IMG/VR virus record: IMGVR_UViG_2531839586_000020
Span: 1-7,227 of that record
Length of the DNA stretch: 7,227 bases
Direction: 5' to 3' (one strand)
From: a virus
Lineage: Duplodnaviria > Heunggongvirae > Uroviricota > Caudoviricetes
Both the position numbers and the translations under genes were made by a program. Below the pieces are notes generated by a model. That model had not been told where the DNA came from and searched no databases. It saw nothing but the letters and a program-made list of their open reading frames with translations. How positions within the stretch are numbered: the first letter of the stretch is position 1; each line of letters starts with the position of its first letter. This document shows positions 560 to 7,227 of this stretch, in pieces.

Positions 560-1140
560 ATGCGTAAAGTTTATGCAGCCATTTTGTCCGCAGCCATCTG
601 TCTGGCCGTATCCGGTGCGCCTGCATGGGCGTCTGAGCAGCAGGCCACACTGAGCGCAGGGTATCTTCATGCCCGTACGAACGCTCCCGGCAGCGATAAT
701 CTGAACGGGATTAACGTGAAATACCGTTATGAGTTTACGGACACCTGGGGCTGAACGTCTTCAGTATGCAGGAAGATGAGCAAAAAACGCATTACAGCGA
801 TACCCGCTGGCATGAGATTCCGTCGTAACCGCTGGTTCAGCGTATGGCGGGCCGTCTGTGCGCGTGAATGAATGGTTCAGCGCGTATGCGATGGCGGGTG
901 TGGCTTACAGCCGTGTGTCGACTTTCTCCGGGGATTATCTCGTACTGACAACAAGGGGAAAAGCACGATGTGCTGACCGGAAGTGATGACGGTCGCCACA
1001 GCAACACGTCTCTGGCGTGGGGGGCTGGCGTGCAGTTTAACCCGACCGAATCCGTGGCCATTGATATTGCTTATGAAGGCTCCGGCAGTGGTGACTGGCG
1101 CACTGACGGTTTCATCGTGGGTGTCGGTTATAAATTCTGA
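560..1140 (+). pseudogene. lom: lom (outer membrane protein Lom, Ail/OmpX family moron), frame-disrupted
   Basis: RBS GAGAGG (549-554) then ATG at 560. Frame 2 gives MRKVYAAILSAAICLAVSGAPAWASEQQATLSAGYLHARTNAPGSDNLNGINVKYRYEFTDTWG, then TGA at 752-754. Lom-like peptide then continues in shifting frames: SDTRWHE (frame 1, about 796-816), RRNRWFSV (frame 2, 821-844), VRVNEWFSAYAMAGVAYSRVSTFSGDYL (frame 3, 858-941), and KHDVLTGSDDGRHSNTSLAWGAGVQFNPTESVAIDIAYEGSGSGDWRTDGFIVGVGYKF (frame 1, 961-1137) ending at TGA 1138-1140. Span 581 nt is not a multiple of 3. Identity is confident; the pseudogene call assumes the sequence is accurate. Confidence 0.75.
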
Positions 1141-1193: not shown

Positions 1194-1775
1194 GTGGGGT
1201 GAATATGGCAGTAAAGATTTCAGGTGTACTGAAAGACGGCACAGGAAAACCGGTACAGAACTGCACAATCCAGCTGAAAGCAAAACGTAACAGCACCACG
1301 GTGGTGGTGAACACGCTGGCCTCAGAAAATCCGGATGAAGCCGGGCGTTACAGCATGGACGTTGAGTACGGCAGTACAGCGTTATTCTGTTGGTGGAAGG
1401 TTCCCGCCGTCACATGCCGGGACCATCACGTGTATGAAGATTCCACCGGTACGCTGAATGATTTTCTCGGTGCCATGACGGAGGATGATGCCGTCCGAGG
1501 CACTGCGCCGTTTGACTGATGGTGGAAGAGTGGCGCGTAACGCGTCCGGGTGGCACAGAACACGGCAGCCGCAAGAAGTCAGCCAGGATGCCGGCACATC
1601 GCCGTGAGGCGGCAACCCATGCGACTGATGCTCAGGCTCAGCACGGCAGCCAGCACTCAGCCGGCAGGCCGCGCGTCGGCTCAGTCAGCTCTTCCAGCGC
1701 AGGAACGGCATCAACAAAGGCTGAAGCATCAAAAGTGCTGCGCTGCAGAGTCCTCAAAAAGCGCGGCAGCTACCA

Positions 1776-4007
1776 GTGCCGTGCGGCGAAAACGTCAGAA
1801 ACGAATGCGGCAGCGTCACAACAATCGCAGCCACTTCTGCATCCCCGCGACCACGAAGCGTCAGAAGCGCCACCTCAGCCCGGGATGCGGCGGCCTCAAA
1901 AGAGGCAGCGAAATCATCAGAAACGAACGCATCATCAAGCGCCAGTAGTGCCGCTTCCTCGGCAACGGCGGCAGGAAATTCCGCGAAGGCGGCAAAAACG
2001 TCCGAGACGAACGCCAGGTCTTCTGAAACGGCAGCGGGACAGAGCGCCTCAGCTGCGGCAGGCTCAAAAACAGCGGCTGCGTCGTCTGCCAGTGCCGCAT
2101 CAACAAGTGCCGGGCAGGCCTCAGCCAGTGCCACCGCTGCCGGAAAGTCGGCAGAAAGTGCCGCATCGTCTGCTTCAACAGCCACAACGAAGGCTGGCGA
2201 AGCCACTGAACAGGCCAGCGCAGCAGCGAGGTCAGCTTCCGCAGCGAAGACATCCGAAACGAACGCGAAAGCGTCGGAAACCCGTGCAGAATCCTCAAAA
2301 ACGGCTGCCGCATCGTCAGCCAGTTCGGCGGCGTCATCGGCATCATCGGCGTCTGCTTCAAAAGATGAGGCGACCATACAGGCGTCAGCAGCGAAGGGCA
2401 GCGCCACGACGGCATCCACGAAGGCGACAGAGGCTGCTGGTAGTGCGACGGCAGCAGCTCAGAGCAAAAGTACGGCGGAATCTGCAGCAACGCGCGCTGA
2501 GACAGCGGCAAAACGGGCAGAGGATATTGCATCCGCCGTGGCGCTTGAGGATGCGAGCACGACGAAAAAGGGGATAGTACAGCTCAGTAGTGCGACTAAC
2601 AGCACGTCTGAAACGCTGGCGGCAACGCCAAAGGCAGTAAAATCAGCCTATGACAATGCAGAGAAACGTCTGCAGAAAGACCAGAACGGCGCTGATATAC
2701 CCGATAAGGGACGCTTCCTGAACAACATTAACGCGGTCAGTAAAACAGACTTTGCTGATAAGCGTGGTATGCGTTATGTGCGGGTTAACGCTCCTGCAGG
2801 TGCAACATCTGGAAAATATTACCCTGTTGTTGTTATGCGTTCTGCTGGCTCAGTAAGCGAACTGGCATCAAGGGTCATTATCACCACGGCAACGCGAACC
2901 GCAGGCGATCCGATGAATAACTGCGAGTTTAACGGATTTGTTATGCCTGGTGGCTGGACTGACAGGGGGCGTTATGCTTATGGAATGTTCTGGCAATATC
3001 AAAACAATGAACGAGCCATCCACTCAATAATGATGAGTAATAAGGGCGATGATTTGCGCTCTGTGTTCTATGTTGATGGCGCTGCTTTCCCTGTTTTTGC
3101 GTTTATCGAAGATGGCCTGTCAATATCCGCACCTGGTGCTGATCTCGTTGTTAATGATACGACCTATAAGTTTGGGGCAACAAATCCGGCGACTGAATGT
3201 ATCGCGGCGGACGTTATCCTTGATTTTAAGAGTGGGCGTGGTTTTTATGAGTCTCATTCGTTAATCGTTAACGATAACTTGTCGTGCAAAAAACTTTTTG
3301 CCACAGACGAAATTGTAGCGCGTGGTGGTAATCAGATTCGAATGATAGGTGGGGAGTATGGGGCATTATGGCGTAATGATGGCGCTAAAACTTACCTGCT
3401 GCTTACCAATCAAGGTGATGTTTATGGTGGCTGGAATACATTAAGACCGTTTGCTATTGATAACGCAACCGGCGAACTGGTTATTGGAACCAAACTGTCC
3501 GCAAGTCTGAACGGTAATGCATTAACAGCAACAAAGCTGCAAACGCCAAGACGGGTTTCTGGTGTTGAGTTTGATGGTTCCAAAGATATTACTTTAACCG
3601 CCGCGCATGTGGCTGCTTTTGCCAGAAGGGCAACGGATACATATGCCGATGCGGATGGTGGCGTTCCCTGGAATGCCGAATCAGGCGCTTATAATGTCAC
3701 CCGCTCTGGCGACAGCTATATTCTGGTTAACTTCTATACCGGAGTCGGAAGTTGCCGGACCTTGCAGATGAAGGCGCATTACAGAAATGGTGGTCTGTTC
3801 TACCGTTCTTCAAGAGACGGTTATGGTTTTGAGGAAGACTGGGCAGAAGTTTATACCTCGAAAAATCTTCCACCAGAAAGCTACCCAGTCGGCGCACCAA
3901 TCCCGTGGCCATCAGATACCGTTCCGTCTGGTTATGCCCTGATGCAGGGGCAGACTTTTACAAATCTGCCTACCCGAAACTTGCAGCCGCTTATCCGTCA
4001 GGCGTGA
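1776..4007 (+). CDS. stf: stf central fragment: longest intact ORF of the disrupted side tail fibre gene (Ala/Ser-rich shaft repeats plus distinct central domain). The ATG at 1776 is probably not a real start
   Basis: 743-codon ORF in frame 3. Contains [24 protein letters not shown]..., [44 protein letters not shown] and ...[21 protein letters not shown], all recalled as Stf-like. The last 16 codons (after about 3960) are out-of-frame read-through. Confidence 0.6.
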
Positions 4008-4585
4008 TCCCTGATATGCGTGGCTGGACGATTAAGGGCAAACCCGCCAGTGGTCGGGCCGTATTGTCTCAGGAACAGGACGGCATTAAATCGCATACCC
4101 ACAGCGCCAGCGCATCCAGTACGGATTTGGGGACGAAAACCACATCGTCGTTTGATTACGGCACTAAATCCACGAATAACACCGGGGCGCATACGCACAG
4201 TCTGAGTGGCTCTACGGGGTCTGCCGGTGTTCATACTCATGGTAATGGTATTCGTTGGCCAGGAGGCGGCGGTTCTGCGTTAGCATTTTATGATGGCGGT
4301 GGGTTCACTTATGTCCAGAATTCACAGTATCAAGTAAGCCCGGAGACTTCTTCCTATAGATCGTATTATCAACGTATTCAGACACAGTCAGCAGGTGCTC
4401 ATACCCACTCGCTGTCTGGTACTGCAGCAAGTTCTGGCGCACATGCACATACTGTAGGTATTGGTGCGCATACGCACTCCGTTGCGATTGGTTCACATGG
4501 ACACACCATCACCGTTAACGCTGCGGGTAACGCGGAAAACACCGTCAAAAACATCGCATTTAACTATATTGTGAGGCTTGCATAA
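3905..4585 (+). CDS. stf: stf C-terminal fragment (His-rich repeat region, receptor-binding / Tfa-dependent tip); the first roughly 18 codons are out-of-frame overlap
   Basis: Frame 2 ORF. From about 3962 it reads [52 protein letters not shown]...GAHTHSLSG...[49 protein letters not shown], matching the recalled lambda Stf C-terminus. Stop TAA at 4583-4585. Confidence 0.6.
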
Positions 4586-5169
4586 TGGCATTCAGAATGA
4601 GTGAACAAGCACGGACCATAAAAATTTATAATCTGCTGGCCGGAACTAATGAATTTATTGGTGAAGGTGACGCATATATTCCGCCTCATACAGGTCTGCC
4701 AGCAAACAGTACCGATATTGCACCACCAGATATTCCGGCAGGCTTCGTGGCTGTTTTCAACAGTGATGAGGCATCGTGGCATCTCGTTGAAGACCATCGG
4801 GGTAAAACGGTTTATGACGTGGCTTCCGGCGACGCGTTATTTATTTCTGAACTTGGCTCGTTACCGGAAAATGTCACCTGGTTATCGCCGGAAGGGGAAT
4901 ATCAGAAGTGGAACGGCACAGCCTGGGTGAAGGATACGGAAGCAGAAAAACTGTTCCGGATCCGGGAGGCGGAAGAAACAAAAAACAGCCTGATGCAGGT
5001 AGCCAGTGAGCATATAGCGCCACTTCAGGATGCTGTAGATCTGGAGATCGCAACGGAGGAAGAAACCTCATTGCTGGAAGCCTGGAAAAAATATCGGGTG
5101 TTGCTGAACCGTGTTAATACAACAACTGCACCTGATATTGAGTGGCCGGAAGAACCAGACACAATGTAA
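4585..5169 (+). CDS. tfa: Tail fibre assembly protein Tfa (194 aa), intact
   Basis: ATG at 4585 overlaps the stf stop (TAATG); RBS GAGG at 4573-4576. Translation [91 protein letters not shown]... is near-identical to recalled lambda Tfa (orf-194) and the same length. Stop TAA at 5167-5169. Confidence 0.92.
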
Positions 5170-5172
5170 GCG

Positions 5173-5219
5173 AAAAAGAAAAACCGCAGACACGACGTAT
5201 GCAGGACGTGCTGCGGTTT
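5173..5219. terminator. GC-rich hairpin between convergent tfa (+) and the minus-strand cassette; candidate bidirectional intrinsic terminator, stronger for the minus strand
   Basis: Stem CCGCAG(A)CACG (5184-5194) pairs with CGTGCTGCGG (5207-5216) around a 12-nt loop. On the minus strand the hairpin is followed by TTTTTCTTTTT (complement of 5173-5183); on the plus strand only TTT follows (5217-5219). Confidence 0.45.
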
Positions 5220-5335
5220 GGCTAGTAAACTTTTGATAGTGCGAGTATTGAATGATTTCCAGCCCATTACTCATTTTACGCTTTTCACGCGCAAGAGAAA
5301 TTGAACTTTATTCCTCTGTCACCACATGACGGGGA

Positions 5336-6094
5336 TTAACATTCTGGATTTTTTATTTCTAAATCAGATAAAGCATTAATTCTTATTTTTTCTAAGGCTT
5401 TATCCATGGCCCCCTTGATTCTGTATCCATAATCATCCGGTTCTTCATATTCCTGTGGGGACGGATTTGTACCAATATTCTCAATTAATTCATTTAAAAT
5501 AACTGTTACTTCTTTATTAAGAAGAACTGCTTTAGTTAACATCATCTCTGTTAATGCTGTGAAGGCTAGGCTAAGTTTCTGTTGTAGCTCTTTATTTTTT
5601 AATTTAAGATCTTCATCGTTTAGTGCTTTATCACGGTCTTCGTGAGCCTGTTGTACTTCATCCCAAAACAGCTTTTCTTGTTCTTGATTAAAATATCCTT
5701 GATAACTATTGGCTACATATGTTGGCATCATGTGAATCTCAATAATTTCAAATTCATTATCAGCCCATTTTTTTATACTAAGTAACTGAGTGTAAATGTA
5801 CTCATACATATCGTACTTTTTTTGCCAGATTTGTTGAGAAATCCACAACTCAGAAGTAATCTTTTTTTCTATATCTTTGATAGTTGTTGTATTTAATGCT
5901 AACTGCTTTCTGAGTATTTCATAGTTAGCGTTGGTAGCAGAAATTTTTGCTTTTTCAGTTATAAAAGAAACAATAAAGTTCACTATGAGAGCTGCAATAA
6001 TAATAGCGAAGCTCAACCCTAAAATCTCTGTGGTTGAGAAATTAGATGACTGTAATGCTTTGATAAGTTCAAAAAACTGTTTTTCTGTGAGCAT
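5336..6094 (-). CDS. Hypothetical single-pass membrane protein (252 aa), AT-rich cargo gene B; function unknown
   Basis: 759-nt ORF in roughly 32% GC DNA (sample counts), where long ORFs are unlikely by chance. ATG at 6094-6092 is preceded on the minus strand by AAGGT about 5 nt upstream. Hydrophobic stretch ILGLSFAIIIAALIVNFIVSFI (residues about 24-45) then a charged, probably helical domain (...EDRDKALNDEDLKLKNKELQQKLSLAF...). No recognisable catalytic motif. Confidence 0.75.
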   Translation of the reverse strand: MLTEKQFFELIKALQSSNFSTTEILGLSFAIIIAALIVNFIVSFITEKAKISATNANYEILRKQLALNTTTIKDIEKKITSELWISQQIWQKKYDMYEYIYTQLLSIKKWADNEFEIIEIHMMPTYVANSYQGYFNQEQEKLFWDEVQQAHEDRDKALNDEDLKLKNKELQQKLSLAFTALTEMMLTKAVLLNKEVTVILNELIENIGTNPSPQEYEEPDDYGYRIKGAMDKALEKIRINALSDLEIKNPEC

Positions 6095-6165
6095 GGTACC
6101 TTACCAAAAATTAAGACTGTTATCTATATAAAAATGTTACCCAAGAGGGATTGTAATGAAATAAC

Positions 6166-6187
6166 AAACCGGCACATTGGCCGGTTT
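6166..6187 (-). terminator. Hairpin directly after the stop of gene A; candidate intrinsic terminator or attenuator between the two cargo genes
   Basis: Perfect 8-bp stem AAACCGGC (6166-6173) / 6-nt loop / GCCGGTTT (6180-6187). On the minus strand it begins 5 nt after the gene A stop and is followed by GTTATTTCATT (U-rich). The stem has only 5 G:C pairs, so strength is uncertain. Confidence 0.4.
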
Positions 6188-6192
6188 GAAGT

Positions 6193-7227
6193 TCAAGGGG
6201 GTGAGATTGTAGAGGCGTTACCTTGTTCTATCACACCAGACCTAATCTTATAACTACCAAGGATGTTGACCGTTTTATTATTTTTCATCGCGTCAAAAAT
6301 TAAGCCTATTTCATCAGGATCATTGATAAAACTGGTATCAACATAGATCGGGAATGAATCATCACCTGTTGGCTCATGGCAGCTTAACGTTAGCTTATCG
6401 GCTGAGCGTTTTATACTATCAATGACAACTTCCAATGTTTGCTGCTCTGACTTAGCCTTTTCAATTGGGTTCTTGATGATTTCTTGAACCTGACCTTGCG
6501 AAAGCTCAATATTGCTGGCCCCGCGGATCGTCACTTTGTCTGCATCAGATGCACCTTTAAGAACTCCAGTGTATGCCTTAGCTGTGTGCTCTTGGATACC
6601 TTCGGCGCGCTCTATCGTATCAATACCTTCATGTGCTTTTATTGCAGACAGCATACCATCGCGTAGAATTGTCATCCGCTCGGATTCTGCTCGCTGTTTT
6701 GCTTCTTCCAGTTGTAACTCAATAGTTTTGGTTTCGACTTGTGTCTGATGATCTAAGTAGGACGTACCGACCCATGCGCCGCCTAAAACTAAGACAGCAA
6801 ACAGGAAACACATTGTTTTCTGTCTTGGGCTCATACCTTGCGTTACCTTCTCAAATGCGTTACCAAAGGAATCAATAAGTTCTTTAACTGAGGTGATAAT
6901 TTCTGTGCAGCCAGGATTGATAGTAAAAACCAACTCTGCAGCTTCTCGATCCTCAGCAGTGAGCTTCTGTAAGTTAGAGGTTTTGTACTTGATTAGAGTA
7001 AAAACCTTGTACATCTCAGTTTGAAATTCACAGATACCCTGTGCCAAACTTGCAGGCAGAGTACCATTATACTTATCTTCATCACCAAAAAATTTGAAAT
7101 CAATACTTTCTAAGAAGTTTAACTTCAAATTTTCAATGTGGATTTCTTCGCCTGAAATAACTCGTCCGAAAATATTTTCTATATCATCAATATCATTGAT
7201 TTCATAGGCCTGAATTGCATCTTCCAT
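6193..7227 (-). CDS. Hypothetical membrane-anchored protein (at least 344 aa), AT-rich cargo gene A; function unknown
   Basis: 1035-nt ORF on the minus strand, stop TGA at 6195-6193. The ATG is the last three bases of the window (7227-7225), so the RBS and promoter are not visible and the true start could be upstream. Acidic N-terminal region, one hydrophobic segment MCFLFAVLVLGGAWVGTSY (residues about 139-157, coded about 6757-6813) with basic residues on its N-side (SPRQKT), then a roughly 185-aa C-terminal domain ending ISPP. No Walker, nuclease or other motif recognised. Confidence 0.7.
   Translation of the reverse strand: MEDAIQAYEINDIDDIENIFGRVISGEEIHIENLKLNFLESIDFKFFGDEDKYNGTLPASLAQGICEFQTEMYKVFTLIKYKTSNLQKLTAEDREAAELVFTINPGCTEIITSVKELIDSFGNAFEKVTQGMSPRQKTMCFLFAVLVLGGAWVGTSYLDHQTQVETKTIELQLEEAKQRAESERMTILRDGMLSAIKAHEGIDTIERAEGIQEHTAKAYTGVLKGASDADKVTIRGASNIELSQGQVQEIIKNPIEKAKSEQQTLEVVIDSIKRSADKLTLSCHEPTGDDSFPIYVDTSFINDPDEIGLIFDAMKNNKTVNILGSYKIRSGVIEQGNASTISPP

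What the first reader, a model, noticed from the sequence alone, without database searches (positions are those of the whole stretch)
5336..7227. AT-rich two-gene membrane-protein cassette in the variable slot downstream of tfa: candidate undescribed accessory or defence module
Directly after the conserved J-lom-stf-tfa module the composition drops from roughly 50-65% GC to roughly 30-40% GC (hand counts on several 60-120 nt samples). Two long ORFs on the opposite strand encode single-pass membrane proteins that I cannot assign to any family. The region downstream of the tail fibre genes in lambdoid phages (the lambda b region) is a known non-essential, highly variable cargo site carrying morons, and prophage variable regions are known hotspots for anti-phage and lysogenic-conversion genes. 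A pair of small membrane proteins is a common architecture for superinfection-exclusion and abortive-infection modules. The function here is inference only.
Basis: partly seen in the sequence, partly recalled or inferred. Interest (0 to 1): 0.8.

Follow-up and report, generated by a model that had tools for sequence, protein, structure and literature searches.

The report
Two independent prophage cargo genes, not a pair
The AT-rich stretch after the tail-fibre genes holds two real, uncharacterised prophage cargo genes that are unrelated and travel separately; the larger one belongs to a widespread family that usually sits right behind phage repressor genes, in the slot that holds rexAB in lambda, so it is a testable candidate for a new phage-exclusion protein.

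Summary
Window 5336-7227 is AT-rich (GC 0.32 and 0.40, against 0.48-0.63 upstream). It carries two intact minus-strand genes, A (252 aa, 5336-6094) and B (344 aa, 6193-7227), with no Pfam, NCBIfam or PADLOC family.

The slot is variable cargo. It lies between tfa and a DinI-like gene at the right end of a lambdoid prophage next to prfC. Only 28 of 5,426 complete E. coli genomes carry A+B. Other strains carry a DRT-type reverse transcriptase plus SLATT, a TIR-reverse transcriptase and other genes there.

The "two-gene cassette" reading fails:
- A and B are adjacent only in this one near-identical E. coli lineage and occur separately everywhere else.
- A strong terminator hairpin separates them.
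- Their profiles are unrelated.

B's usual home is directly downstream of the cI-type repressor (31 of about 41 viral loci; phages mEp332 and PhiR12), where lambda has rexAB. It has an N-terminal α/β domain, one moderately hydrophobic helix and a C-terminal OB fold. Its superfamily spans about 790 clusters. A is an N-terminally anchored helical-bundle protein that moves as a single AT-rich gene.

Both are best read as independent morons. An anti-phage exclusion role is inferred from location only and is untested.

The parts
4585..5169 (+). tfa (tail fibre assembly gene). It is the last gene of the conserved late operon and the left border of the cargo slot.
   Evidence: 194-aa ORF. Annotated as tail fibre assembly protein in strains W4 and Ec-U11.
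5178..5281 (.). Conserved 'post-tfa' element R (copy 1). It contains a hairpin at 5181-5219. On the minus strand the hairpin is followed by UUUUUCUUUUU, so it looks like an intrinsic terminator for gene A, and for tfa in the other direction. A second copy lies beyond the window, just after the dinI-like gene, so about 100-nt direct repeats bracket the A-B insert.
   Evidence: Direct repeat, 62 nt at 90% identity, spacing 2,390 nt. The alignment extends to about 100 nt. Fold; sequence. The element occurs in 121 phage records and 2,915 of 5,426 E. coli genomes. In HK97 it lies between tfa and the sib site/attP.
5336..6094 (-). Gene A: 252 aa with an N-terminal transmembrane anchor (residues about 24-45) followed by an all-helical four-helix-bundle domain. 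GC is 0.315. It is an independent single-gene moron.
6165..6188 (-). Intrinsic-terminator-like hairpin 4 nt after the stop codon of B. It separates the B and A transcription units.
   Evidence: 9-bp stem with 6 G-C pairs, followed by a T-rich tail. dG -16.6 kcal/mol, z = -4.56, 0 of 200 shuffles as stable.
6193..7227 (-). Gene B: 344 aa. It has an N-terminal α/β domain (1-130), a moderately hydrophobic helix (about 134-158, with a small-xxx-small G150-x3-G154 motif), a helical hairpin (169-225) and a C-terminal OB-fold domain (231-342). It is a member of PHROG 6191. Its start codon is the last codon of the window. Its roughly 115-nt conserved leader and promoter region lie outside the window.

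Best explanation
Window 5336-7227 is the right-end cargo slot of a lambdoid prophage integrated next to prfC. It holds two unrelated genes, each followed by its own terminator-like hairpin and so read here as separate transcription units ('morons'), that were brought together by recombination. They are not a two-component system.

Gene B belongs to a large uncharacterised family (PHROG 6191; about 790 clusters at 50% identity). Its usual position is immediately downstream of, and on the same strand as, the cI-type prophage repressor. That is the slot that holds rexAB in lambda and bstA in BTP1. In this prophage a sub-lineage of B has been placed between dinI and tfa. It carries its own roughly 115-nt conserved leader, its own terminator and a remnant of an ssrA attachment site.

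Gene A is a separate AT-rich gene (GC about 0.33 in every host). It encodes an N-terminally anchored helical-bundle protein and recurs on its own in post-tail-fibre slots and at unrelated chromosomal sites.

Shown here: the anatomy, the independence of the two genes, the variability of the slot, the conservation of both proteins, and the fold of B's C-terminal domain.

Inferred: both proteins are made in the lysogen. B most likely acts as a single-protein phage-exclusion factor at the inner membrane. Its N-terminal domain would face the cytoplasm. The helical stalk and OB-fold domain would lie on the other side, where they could interfere with an incoming phage's DNA-delivery apparatus (superinfection exclusion). 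Alternatively B could oligomerise through its small-xxx-small helix and collapse the membrane (abortive infection). A is inferred, more weakly, to be a similar accessory or exclusion factor.
For: Independence of A and B:
- A tblastn survey of 72 loci finds A and B adjacent only in E. coli prfC-prophage loci at 98% identity or more.
- In complete E. coli genomes, 28 carry both, 7 carry A only and 5 carry B only.
- A terminator lies between them.
- hhalign of A against B gives probability 1%.

B in the repressor-adjacent slot:
- mEp332 has cI-B-Timm and PhiR12 has cI-B-N.
- 23 of 29 distinct upstream neighbours carry Peptidase_S24 plus HTH domains.
- 31 of about 41 IMG/VR loci have a cI-like ORF 72-771 nt upstream on the same strand.
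- E. coli MDK9L1 has an S24 peptidase followed by B.
- Precedent for this slot: rexAB and bstA, 'hotspot of mosaic diversity' (PMC8585504).

Slot variability and defence content:
- A+B occur in 28 of 5,426 genomes.
- Alternative occupants between tfa and dinI are RT_UG17 plus SLATT, a TIR-reverse transcriptase, an SDH protease, a pin invertase plus ydfK, and acetyltransferase/sigma-factor genes.
- Other defence neighbours of B relatives are AbiD, a type VI retron and AbiEi/AbiEii.

Mobility:
- Direct repeats of about 100 nt flank the insert.
- An ssrA 3'-end remnant lies upstream of B. Y. ruckeri B sits at the ssrA-proximal end of a Mu-like prophage.
- A keeps GC 0.33-0.35 even in Aeromonas, where the flanks are 0.64.

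Retention:
- A and B are intact in the window, while lom and stf there are broken.
- Ec-U11 keeps both genes in a heavily deleted prophage remnant.

Structure.
Against: - There is no functional evidence of any kind.
- No PADLOC model matches A, B or 68 B-superfamily members.
- The consensus scan finds no sigma-70 promoter upstream of either gene, so expression in the lysogen is assumed, not shown.
- B's hydrophobic helix is marginal. My hand estimate of its insertion energy is slightly positive, and a third of distant relatives fall below KD 1.6.
- The OB fold matches nucleic-acid-binding OB domains best. B could therefore be a cytoplasmic nucleic-acid binder rather than a membrane protein.
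- The only published mention (DFI-seq in UTI89, PMC5404293) lists both genes as mildly induced (1.65-1.84-fold) in bladder cells. That hints at a host-interaction role rather than phage defence.
- Guilt by location is weak: these slots also carry non-defence cargo.
Confidence: 0.55

Rival explanations
1. One reading: A and B form one two-component membrane module, Rex-like or toxin/sensor-like, that works only as a pair.
For: They are adjacent on the same strand and 98 nt apart in all 28 E. coli genomes that carry them. Each has one hydrophobic segment.
Against: - All 28 loci are one lineage at 98% identity or more. The 89-92% copy in SCU-306 lies in an assembly riddled with frameshifts.
- In every other locus examined the partner is absent within the flank held for that locus (up to 10 kb each side where the contig allows).
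- 7 E. coli genomes have A only and 5 have B only.
- A strong terminator separates the genes.
- There is no homology to RexA, RexB or SieB: hhalign probability 1% or less.
Confidence: 0.06
2. One or both genes are lysogenic-conversion factors that change host physiology or host-cell interaction, like lom and bor, rather than anti-phage factors.
For: - Promoter-trap fragments mapping to UTI89_C5140 and UTI89_C5141 were 1.84- and 1.65-fold enriched in bacteria infecting bladder cells (PMC5404293).
- The slot also carries non-defence cargo such as acetyltransferase, dehydratase and hydrolase genes.
- lom lies in the same late-operon cargo region.
- Several carriers are extraintestinal pathogenic isolates, including UTI89, NU14 and mastitis strain 1303.
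Against: - The fold changes are small, and many neighbouring prophage and prfC-region genes appear in the same list.
- The mutant tested in that paper (dC5139) maps, by my reading of the coordinates, to a 154-aa ORF antisense to the tfa remnant. It is neither A nor B.
- B's tight synteny with cI across many genera, including plant and insect associates such as Dickeya, Pantoea and Xenorhabdus and the fish pathogen Yersinia ruckeri, argues for a phage-centred role rather than a mammal-specific one.
Confidence: 0.2
3. B serves the prophage's own life cycle. It could be a membrane-linked modulator of repressor maintenance, induction or lysis timing, co-expressed with cI, rather than a factor excluding other phages.
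For: B is conserved directly behind cI on the same strand, before the immunity terminator. In the window it sits directly behind an SOS-regulated dinI-like gene. The second repeat copy after that gene lacks the U-run, so read-through is possible.
Against: - B is absent from most lambdoid phages, so it cannot be a core function. Only 10 of 50,697 phage records and 33 of 5,426 E. coli genomes carry it.
- It also occurs away from any repressor: at prophage ends, in Proteus and Vibrio-like islands, and next to Abi genes.
- It is retained in a prophage remnant that can no longer grow lytically.
Confidence: 0.12
4. The ORFs are non-functional remnants or chance ORFs in AT-rich junk DNA.
For: The composition is AT-rich, no family is assigned, and no consensus promoter is found.
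Against: - Full-length conservation at 45-99% amino-acid identity across genera, with dozens of invariant residues.
- Confident AF2 models, pLDDT 80-83.
- A superfamily of 790 clusters for B.
- A conserved Shine-Dalgarno sequence (AAGGA) and leader for B.
Confidence: 0.02

Closest known systems
Lambda RexA/RexB (abortive-infection exclusion system encoded downstream of cI)
   Same: B homologues occupy the same genomic slot: directly downstream of cI, on the same strand, before the immunity terminator and upstream of N. The slot is variable and accessory. A membrane element is involved.
   Different: There is no sequence or profile similarity: hhalign probability 1.0% to RexA and 0.3% to RexB. 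Rex is a two-gene system with a four-TM RexB. B is a single protein with at most one TM segment and an OB-fold domain. In the window B is not next to cI at all.
BstA (single-protein prophage abortive-infection factor of Salmonella phage BTP1)
   Same: Both are single genes conserved downstream of the prophage repressor and are presumed to share its promoter. Both are spread over diverse Gram-negative prophages (PMC8585504).
   Different: No PADLOC or Pfam hit links B to BstA. From my own knowledge, BstA is a cytoplasmic DNA-binding protein with a KilA-N-type domain and a cognate aba anti-defence element. I did not look for such an element here.
P22 SieA and HK97 gp15 (single inner-membrane superinfection-exclusion proteins)
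   Same: They are prophage-expressed morons encoded by one gene and anchored in the inner membrane. SieA blocks DNA delivery across the inner membrane (PMC10883804). From my own knowledge, HK97 gp15 is a moron in the tail-gene region. Both A and B fit this general architecture and location.
   Different: There is no homology: the PHROG scan gives only the unknown family 6191 for B and nothing for A. B is much larger and has two folded soluble domains. Function was not tested.
Morons in the sense of Juhala/Hendrix (extra transcription units inserted between conserved lambdoid genes)
   Same: The composition deviates from the flanks. Each gene is followed by its own terminator-like hairpin. The genes are present or absent among otherwise similar prophages. 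They sit at the late-operon end.
   Different: Promoters were not identified by consensus scanning. The two morons lie side by side and so mimic an operon.
PHROG 6191 (phage protein family of unknown function)
   Same: B matches it end to end, E=2e-92, residues 4-342 of the protein against positions 4-332 of 338 in the profile.
   Different: The family carries no functional annotation. The 'T2SS GspM containing protein' label in the PhiR12 and mEp332 GenBank records is not reproduced by Pfam or by the fold searches.

Membership tests
Lambda Rex system (RexA + RexB) | Sequence or profile homology to RexA or RexB | tested here: not met
   hhalign of the B superfamily profile gives probability 1.0% against lambda RexA and 0.3% against RexB.
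Lambda Rex system (RexA + RexB) | Two co-transcribed, co-inherited genes (sensor plus multi-TM channel) | tested here: not met
   A and B are inherited separately and a terminator lies between them. A and B each have one hydrophobic segment.
Lambda Rex system (RexA + RexB) | Location downstream of cI in the pRM transcript | tested here: met
   This is met for B homologues in other phages. It is not met for the copy in this window, which lies between dinI and gene A.
Moron (independent accessory transcription unit in a lambdoid phage) | Composition different from the flanking conserved genes | tested here: met
   GC is 0.315 for A and 0.404 for B, against 0.48-0.63 in the flanks. A homologues keep GC about 0.33 in hosts with flanks of 0.37-0.65.
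Moron (independent accessory transcription unit in a lambdoid phage) | Own terminator | tested here: met
   A hairpin at 6188-6165 follows B. A hairpin at 5219-5181 plus a U-run follows A.
Moron (independent accessory transcription unit in a lambdoid phage) | Own promoter | tested here: inconclusive
   No site with 9 of 12 consensus matches lies upstream of A or B. About 115 nt upstream of B is conserved across four different contexts, which suggests a private regulatory region.
Moron (independent accessory transcription unit in a lambdoid phage) | Present or absent among otherwise homologous phages at the same junction | tested here: met
   28 of 5,426 genomes carry it. Six other occupants were seen at the same tfa-dinI junction.
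Known anti-phage defence systems (PADLOC-DB v2.0.0) | Significant match to any defence-protein HMM | tested here: not met
   The best E-values are 0.052 for A and 0.019 for B. Among 68 B-superfamily members no model is matched by more than one member.
Single-protein inner-membrane superinfection-exclusion factors (SieA / gp15 type) | Inner-membrane localisation through a transmembrane segment | tested here: inconclusive
   A has a strong TM segment, KD19 2.79. B is marginal, KD19 1.82, and the segment is weaker in many relatives. No experimental localisation is available.
Single-protein inner-membrane superinfection-exclusion factors (SieA / gp15 type) | Blocks DNA entry of superinfecting phage when expressed alone | not testable with these tools
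   This needs plaque, DNA-injection and potassium-efflux assays.
PHROG 6191 | Full-length HMM match | tested here: met
   For B: E=2e-92, 310.8 bits, residues 4-342.
OB-fold nucleic-acid-binding domains (SSB/RPA/anticodon-binding type) | Five-stranded β-barrel superposable on known OB folds | tested here: met

The most novel reading that the evidence does not exclude
B (PHROG 6191 and its superfamily of about 790 clusters) is a new, widespread single-protein anti-phage exclusion family. In this reading it is the commonest uncharacterised tenant of the rex slot behind cI in enterobacterial temperate phages. It would work by a mechanism not yet described: a membrane-tethered OB-fold domain that intercepts an incoming phage's DNA or DNA-delivery proteins, or that senses them and triggers membrane failure. 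A would be a second, unrelated new exclusion protein.
Probability: 0.35. Interest if true: 0.7.

Novelty: new member of a known kind. Interest (0 to 1): 0.45.

Why it matters
The slot behind the prophage repressor and the slot after the tail-fibre genes are two places where temperate phages keep genes that protect their host. rexAB, bstA, sieA-type genes and reverse-transcriptase systems live in such slots.

Gene B is a conserved tenant of both slots. It has hundreds of sequence clusters, no Pfam family, no defence-database entry and no published function. A single cloning and phage-panel experiment could therefore add a new exclusion family, and possibly a new mechanism based on a membrane-tethered OB fold.

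The work also gives a practical caution. Two adjacent small membrane-protein genes in a hotspot need not be a system. Here comparative genomics splits them into two independent genes.

Tried and rejected
- Family scans. Pfam, NCBIfam and PADLOC scans of A and B gave nothing significant. Pfam and PADLOC scans of 68 distant B relatives gave no shared family.
- Solved structures. Profile searches of both families against PDB sequences gave 0 hits at E up to 1.
- Homology to known exclusion proteins. hhalign against lambda RexA, RexB and mEp332 SieB was negative. A against B was negative.
- RNA genes. An Rfam scan of 5000-7227 found nothing inside the finding. No tRNA genes were found near B in four loci.
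- Literature. Searches for mEp332, PhiR12, RefSeq accessions, UTI89 locus tags and phrog_6191 found only a qPCR paper and the UTI89 DFI-seq paper. No functional study of either family turned up.
- LexA control of B. The conserved CTGATAAAAC..CAG motif upstream of B has the wrong spacing for a LexA box (CTG-N9-CAG, not N10). I rejected this by eye.
- A second diverged A-B pair. The SCU-306 copy at 89-92% identity is best explained by an error-ridden assembly in which every neighbouring gene is frameshifted.
- Genome-contig scan. The scan for A returned only two loci. Its power was limited by the degenerate-pattern pre-filter.
Full report
**1. What is in the window**

The window is the right arm of a lambdoid prophage. 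It holds the 3' end of J, then lom (560-1140), stf (1199-4585, split into three ORFs) and tfa (4585-5169) on the plus strand. Two minus-strand ORFs follow: A (5336-6094, 252 aa) and B (6193-7227, 344 aa).

GC falls from 0.48-0.64 to 0.30-0.36 across A and to 0.40-0.46 across B. Per feature the values are A 0.315, B 0.404, tfa 0.48 and lom 0.55.

In complete E. coli genomes the same DNA lies at the end of a prophage next to prfC. The order is J - lom - stf - tfa - A - B - dinI-like gene - prfC. B's ATG is the last codon of the window and matches the RefSeq CDS start.

**2. Both ORFs are genuine, conserved and unassigned genes**

- B has 48 homologues and A has 56 in the 5.8-billion-protein collection. 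All are Enterobacterales, plus Aeromonas for A. All are full length, at 45-99% identity, and all are called 'hypothetical'.
- The alignments show many invariant positions.
- Pfam, NCBIfam and PADLOC give nothing significant. B matches PHROG 6191, 'unknown function', end to end at E=2e-92.
- Profile searches against PDB sequences are empty.
- A full HMM search places B in a much larger superfamily. It has 790 clusters at 50% identity with E up to 1e-3 and 328 with E up to 1e-10, nearly all 310-380 aa long.
- None of 68 sampled superfamily members shares a Pfam or PADLOC family.

**3. The slot is variable cargo and holds known defence systems in other strains**

Only 28 of 5,426 complete E. coli genomes carry the A-B segment. 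The roughly 100 nt just after tfa is found in 2,915 genomes and 121 phage records. The dinI-prfC side is found in 4,208 genomes.

I sampled the same tfa-to-dinI junction in six other strains. Each had a different occupant:

| Strain | Occupant of the slot |
|---|---|
| ETEC1701 | Reverse transcriptase (PADLOC RT_UG17, E=2e-158) plus a SLATT protein |
| WP9-S17-ESBL-11 | 'TIR domain-containing anti-phage reverse transcriptase' |
| 50EVAW | SDH-family Clp-fold protease |
| 729_021014_1_4 | Pin-type recombinase, ydfK and ynaM |
| O39:NM F8704-2 | Acetyltransferase, dehydratase and a sigma-70-family protein |
| JNE112863 | DUF1653 protein and an α/β hydrolase |

It supports 'variable cargo slot that can hold defence systems'.

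**4. A and B are not a cassette**

- I ran tblastn with both proteins over all 72 loci collected by then. A and B are adjacent only in the E. coli prfC-prophage loci, which are at least 98% identical to the window.
- B occurs without A in about 45 IMG/VR viral contigs (30-95% identity). It also occurs alone in Proteus mirabilis, in phages mEp332 and PhiR12 and in Pasteurella phage Pmp14.
- A occurs without B in Aeromonas bestiarum, where it is a lone gene between formate-dehydrogenase genes. It also occurs alone in Serratia oryzae, Rahnella and four IMG/VR contigs.
- Within E. coli, 28 genomes have both genes. Seven have only an A-like gene (about 71% nucleotide identity) and five others have only a B-like gene (about 67%).
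- One A-only case has A after tfa and two unknown genes, next to an integrase remnant. One B-only case has B directly behind an S24-family repressor.
- An apparent second A-B pair at 89-92% identity (SCU-306) lies in an assembly where every neighbouring gene is frameshifted. It is best explained by sequencing error.
- Between the stop of B (6193) and the start of A (6094) there is a terminator-like hairpin at 6188-6165. It has a 9-bp stem with 6 G-C pairs, dG -16.6 kcal/mol and z = -4.56, and a U-rich tail follows.
- A is followed by a second hairpin (5219-5181) and the run UUUUUCUUUUU.
- The two profiles are unrelated: hhalign probability 1%.

I therefore treat them as two separate single-gene units.

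**5. B's usual home is the rex slot**

- In the mEp332 immunity-region record the B homologue lies between cI and the Timm terminator. oL/pL and N follow. The depositors noted its similarity to UTI89_C5141.
- In PhiR12_1 the order is cro / cI - B - N.
- Of 29 distinct ORFs immediately upstream of B homologues on the same strand, 23 carry Peptidase_S24 and 22 carry an HTH_3 domain. These are cI/LexA-type repressors.
- A count with an HMM built from that set finds a strong repressor-like ORF in 31 of about 41 IMG/VR loci that have at least 1.5 kb of upstream sequence. The gap to B is 72-771 nt, mostly 72-180 nt. A few weak hits in that table are self-matches of non-S24 sequences that went into the HMM. 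I did not count them.
- This is the position of rexA-rexB in lambda and of bstA in Salmonella phage BTP1. [quoted passage not shown]

A second recurrent position for B is the extreme end of a prophage.

- In Yersinia ruckeri it lies after the invertible tail-fibre segment of a Mu-like prophage, next to smpB, which neighbours ssrA.
- In IMG/VR locus L021 it starts 310 nt from the 3' end of ssrA.

Defence genes are frequent neighbours of B relatives:

- AbiD in Proteus.
- A type VI retron (HTH_VI plus RT_VI) in Pmp14.
- AbiEi/AbiEii next to a distant relative.

**6. How the two genes came to lie together**

- A direct repeat brackets the A-B segment. It is 90% identical over 62 nt and aligns over about 100 nt. 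Copy 1 lies just after tfa (window about 5178-5281). Copy 2 lies just after the dinI-like stop codon, 2,390 nt away.
- The repeat is the conserved 'post-tfa' element. In HK97 it lies between tfa and the sib site/attP.
- Copy 2 keeps the hairpin but not the U-run. It is followed by UUUCAACUCCC.
- The next 25-30 nt resemble the 3' end of ssrA. The 340 nt up to B align with the attL-to-B interval of the ssrA-integrated element L021.
- The last roughly 115 nt before B's ATG, including an AAGGA ribosome-binding site, are conserved in four different non-cI contexts. They are not conserved in the cI-adjacent homologues.

My reading is an inference. A sub-lineage of B left the immunity region, acquired its own leader, rode at the end of an ssrA-integrating prophage, and then recombined into the prfC prophage through the conserved post-tfa element, next to a resident A moron. 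Because copy 2 lacks the U-run, some SOS-dependent read-through from the dinI-like gene into B is possible. A LexA box lies upstream of that gene. This was not tested.

**7. What the proteins look like**

*B* (AF2 model, pLDDT 82.8, pTM 0.72):
- A compact α/β N-terminal domain (1-130).
- A confidently predicted helix (134-151) that covers the only hydrophobic segment.
- A disordered linker (160-167), then a helical hairpin (169-225).
- A β-rich C-terminal domain (231-342).

The hydrophobic segment of B (138-158, CFLFAVLVLGGAWVGTSYL) has KD19 = 1.82. It carries an invariant G150 and a G150-x3-G154 small-xxx-small motif. The flanking charges are 3 K+R on the N side and 1 on the C side. That favours an N-in, C-out topology. 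In distant relatives the segment stays at the same position but is weaker, with median KD19 1.74 and 22 of 68 below 1.6. Membrane insertion is therefore probable, not proven.

Neither protein shows an invariant set of residues that looks catalytic. That is my reading.

**8. Most likely function and its rivals**

The anatomy shows two independent morons in a defence-rich variable slot. The larger one belongs to a family that has conserved synteny with the prophage repressor.

From established knowledge of what such slots encode (rexAB, bstA, sieA/sieB, HK97 gp15, reverse-transcriptase systems), the best-supported mechanism for B is single-protein exclusion of superinfecting phages at the inner membrane. 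I cannot separate two sub-models:
- a block of DNA delivery by the externally tethered helical stalk and OB domain, as shown for SieA (PMC10883804);
- an abortive response in which the cytoplasmic N-domain senses infection and the small-xxx-small helix oligomerises.

I put about 0.45 on an anti-phage role for B and about 0.3 for A. I put about 0.85 on the anatomical conclusions.

Rival explanations:
- *Lysogenic conversion.* The only publication touching these genes lists UTI89_C5140 and UTI89_C5141 as 1.84- and 1.65-fold up in bacteria infecting bladder cells (PMC5404293). The mutant made there (dC5139) maps, by my reading of the coordinates, to a 154-aa ORF antisense to the tfa remnant. It is neither A nor B.
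- *A role in the prophage's own regulation.*
- *A true two-gene system.* This is largely refuted.
- *Junk ORFs.* This is refuted.

**9. Comparison with known systems, and novelty**

- B shares its slot with Rex, but nothing else. There is no homology and it is one gene, not two.
- It shares the single-gene, repressor-linked layout with BstA, but no detectable similarity.
- It shares the general design of SieA and gp15, but no homology.
- It is a member of PHROG 6191.
- The GenBank label 'T2SS GspM containing protein' is not reproduced by any search here.
- A has no comparator beyond 'membrane-anchored helical bundle'.

Both genes meet most criteria of morons. Their promoters are unresolved.

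I classify the finding as a new member of a known kind: prophage accessory or exclusion morons. It is a good experimental lead for B and an ordinary unknown for A. It is not the two-component system that was proposed.

**10. Limits**

- There is no functional, expression or localisation data.
- TM prediction used Kyte-Doolittle windows only.
- The count of repressor neighbours depends on my simple ORF calling.
- The slot survey sampled six alternative alleles, not all of them.

Noticed in passing
window 4928-5126 (+): A full-length match to Rfam family IS009 (RF02111), 225 bits against a gathering score of 117, E=4e-56. It lies entirely inside the 3' part of the tfa coding region.
   Followed up: no
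window 560-1140 (lom) and 1199-4585 (stf): lom carries at least six small indels and a scrambled stretch relative to the intact lom of strain W4. stf is split into three ORFs. A and B in the same window are intact. Either the structural genes are decaying while the cargo is kept, or sequence quality is locally poor.
   Followed up: partly
window about 5178-5281; second copy at L001 14400-14500: An element of about 100 nt with a 39-nt hairpin follows tfa in many lambdoid phages. It is present in 121 phage records and 2,915 of 5,426 E. coli genomes, and in HK97 it lies next to the sib site. Here it is duplicated on both sides of the A-B insert. It probably acts as a bidirectional terminator and as a recombination joint for cargo exchange.
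   Followed up: partly
L001 about 14405-14431 (upstream of B, outside the window); L021 1-52: A diverged copy of the 3' end of ssrA (tmRNA), GCGGTTTCAACTCCCGCAGCCCACCA, lies between the dinI-side repeat and B. In IMG/VR locus L021 the true ssrA 3' end lies 310 nt upstream of a 93%-identical B. This suggests the B module came from the end of an ssrA-integrating element.
   Followed up: partly
L012 3596-5960 (Pasteurella phage Pmp14): A type VI retron (PADLOC HTH_VI, E=2e-32, plus RT_VI, E=2e-88) lies directly upstream of a B-like gene (31% identity) on the same strand, with an 85-nt gap. I did not examine whether the B-like protein is linked to the retron.
   Followed up: no
L090 1-1283 (E. coli Ec-U11): The prfC prophage in this strain is a remnant. 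A terminase large-subunit gene is followed almost directly by a J fragment, so the head and tail genes are deleted. lom, stf, tfa, A, B and dinI remain intact.
   Followed up: no
L007 8001-8759 (Aeromonas bestiarum chromosome): A 70%-identical copy of gene A (GC 0.34) sits alone between formate-dehydrogenase-related genes, in DNA of GC 0.64. No phage genes lie within 8 kb. How a single gene was inserted there is unexplained.
   Followed up: no
L073 2646-3110 (-) in UTI89, corresponding to window about 5025-5280: By coordinates, the published 'UTI89_C5139' is a 154-aa ORF antisense to the tfa remnant and a small membrane-protein gene, 52 nt downstream of A. RefSeq no longer annotates it. Its deletion raised bladder-cell adhesion and invasion by 25% (PMC5404293). 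The published phenotype may therefore reflect loss of other features in that interval.
   Followed up: partly
L070 1989-3110 and L013 11028-12149: A conserved 373-aa ORF with no Pfam or PADLOC match follows gene A homologues in two unrelated contexts, an IMG/VR prophage end and Serratia oryzae. It could be a recurrent neighbour of A.
   Followed up: no
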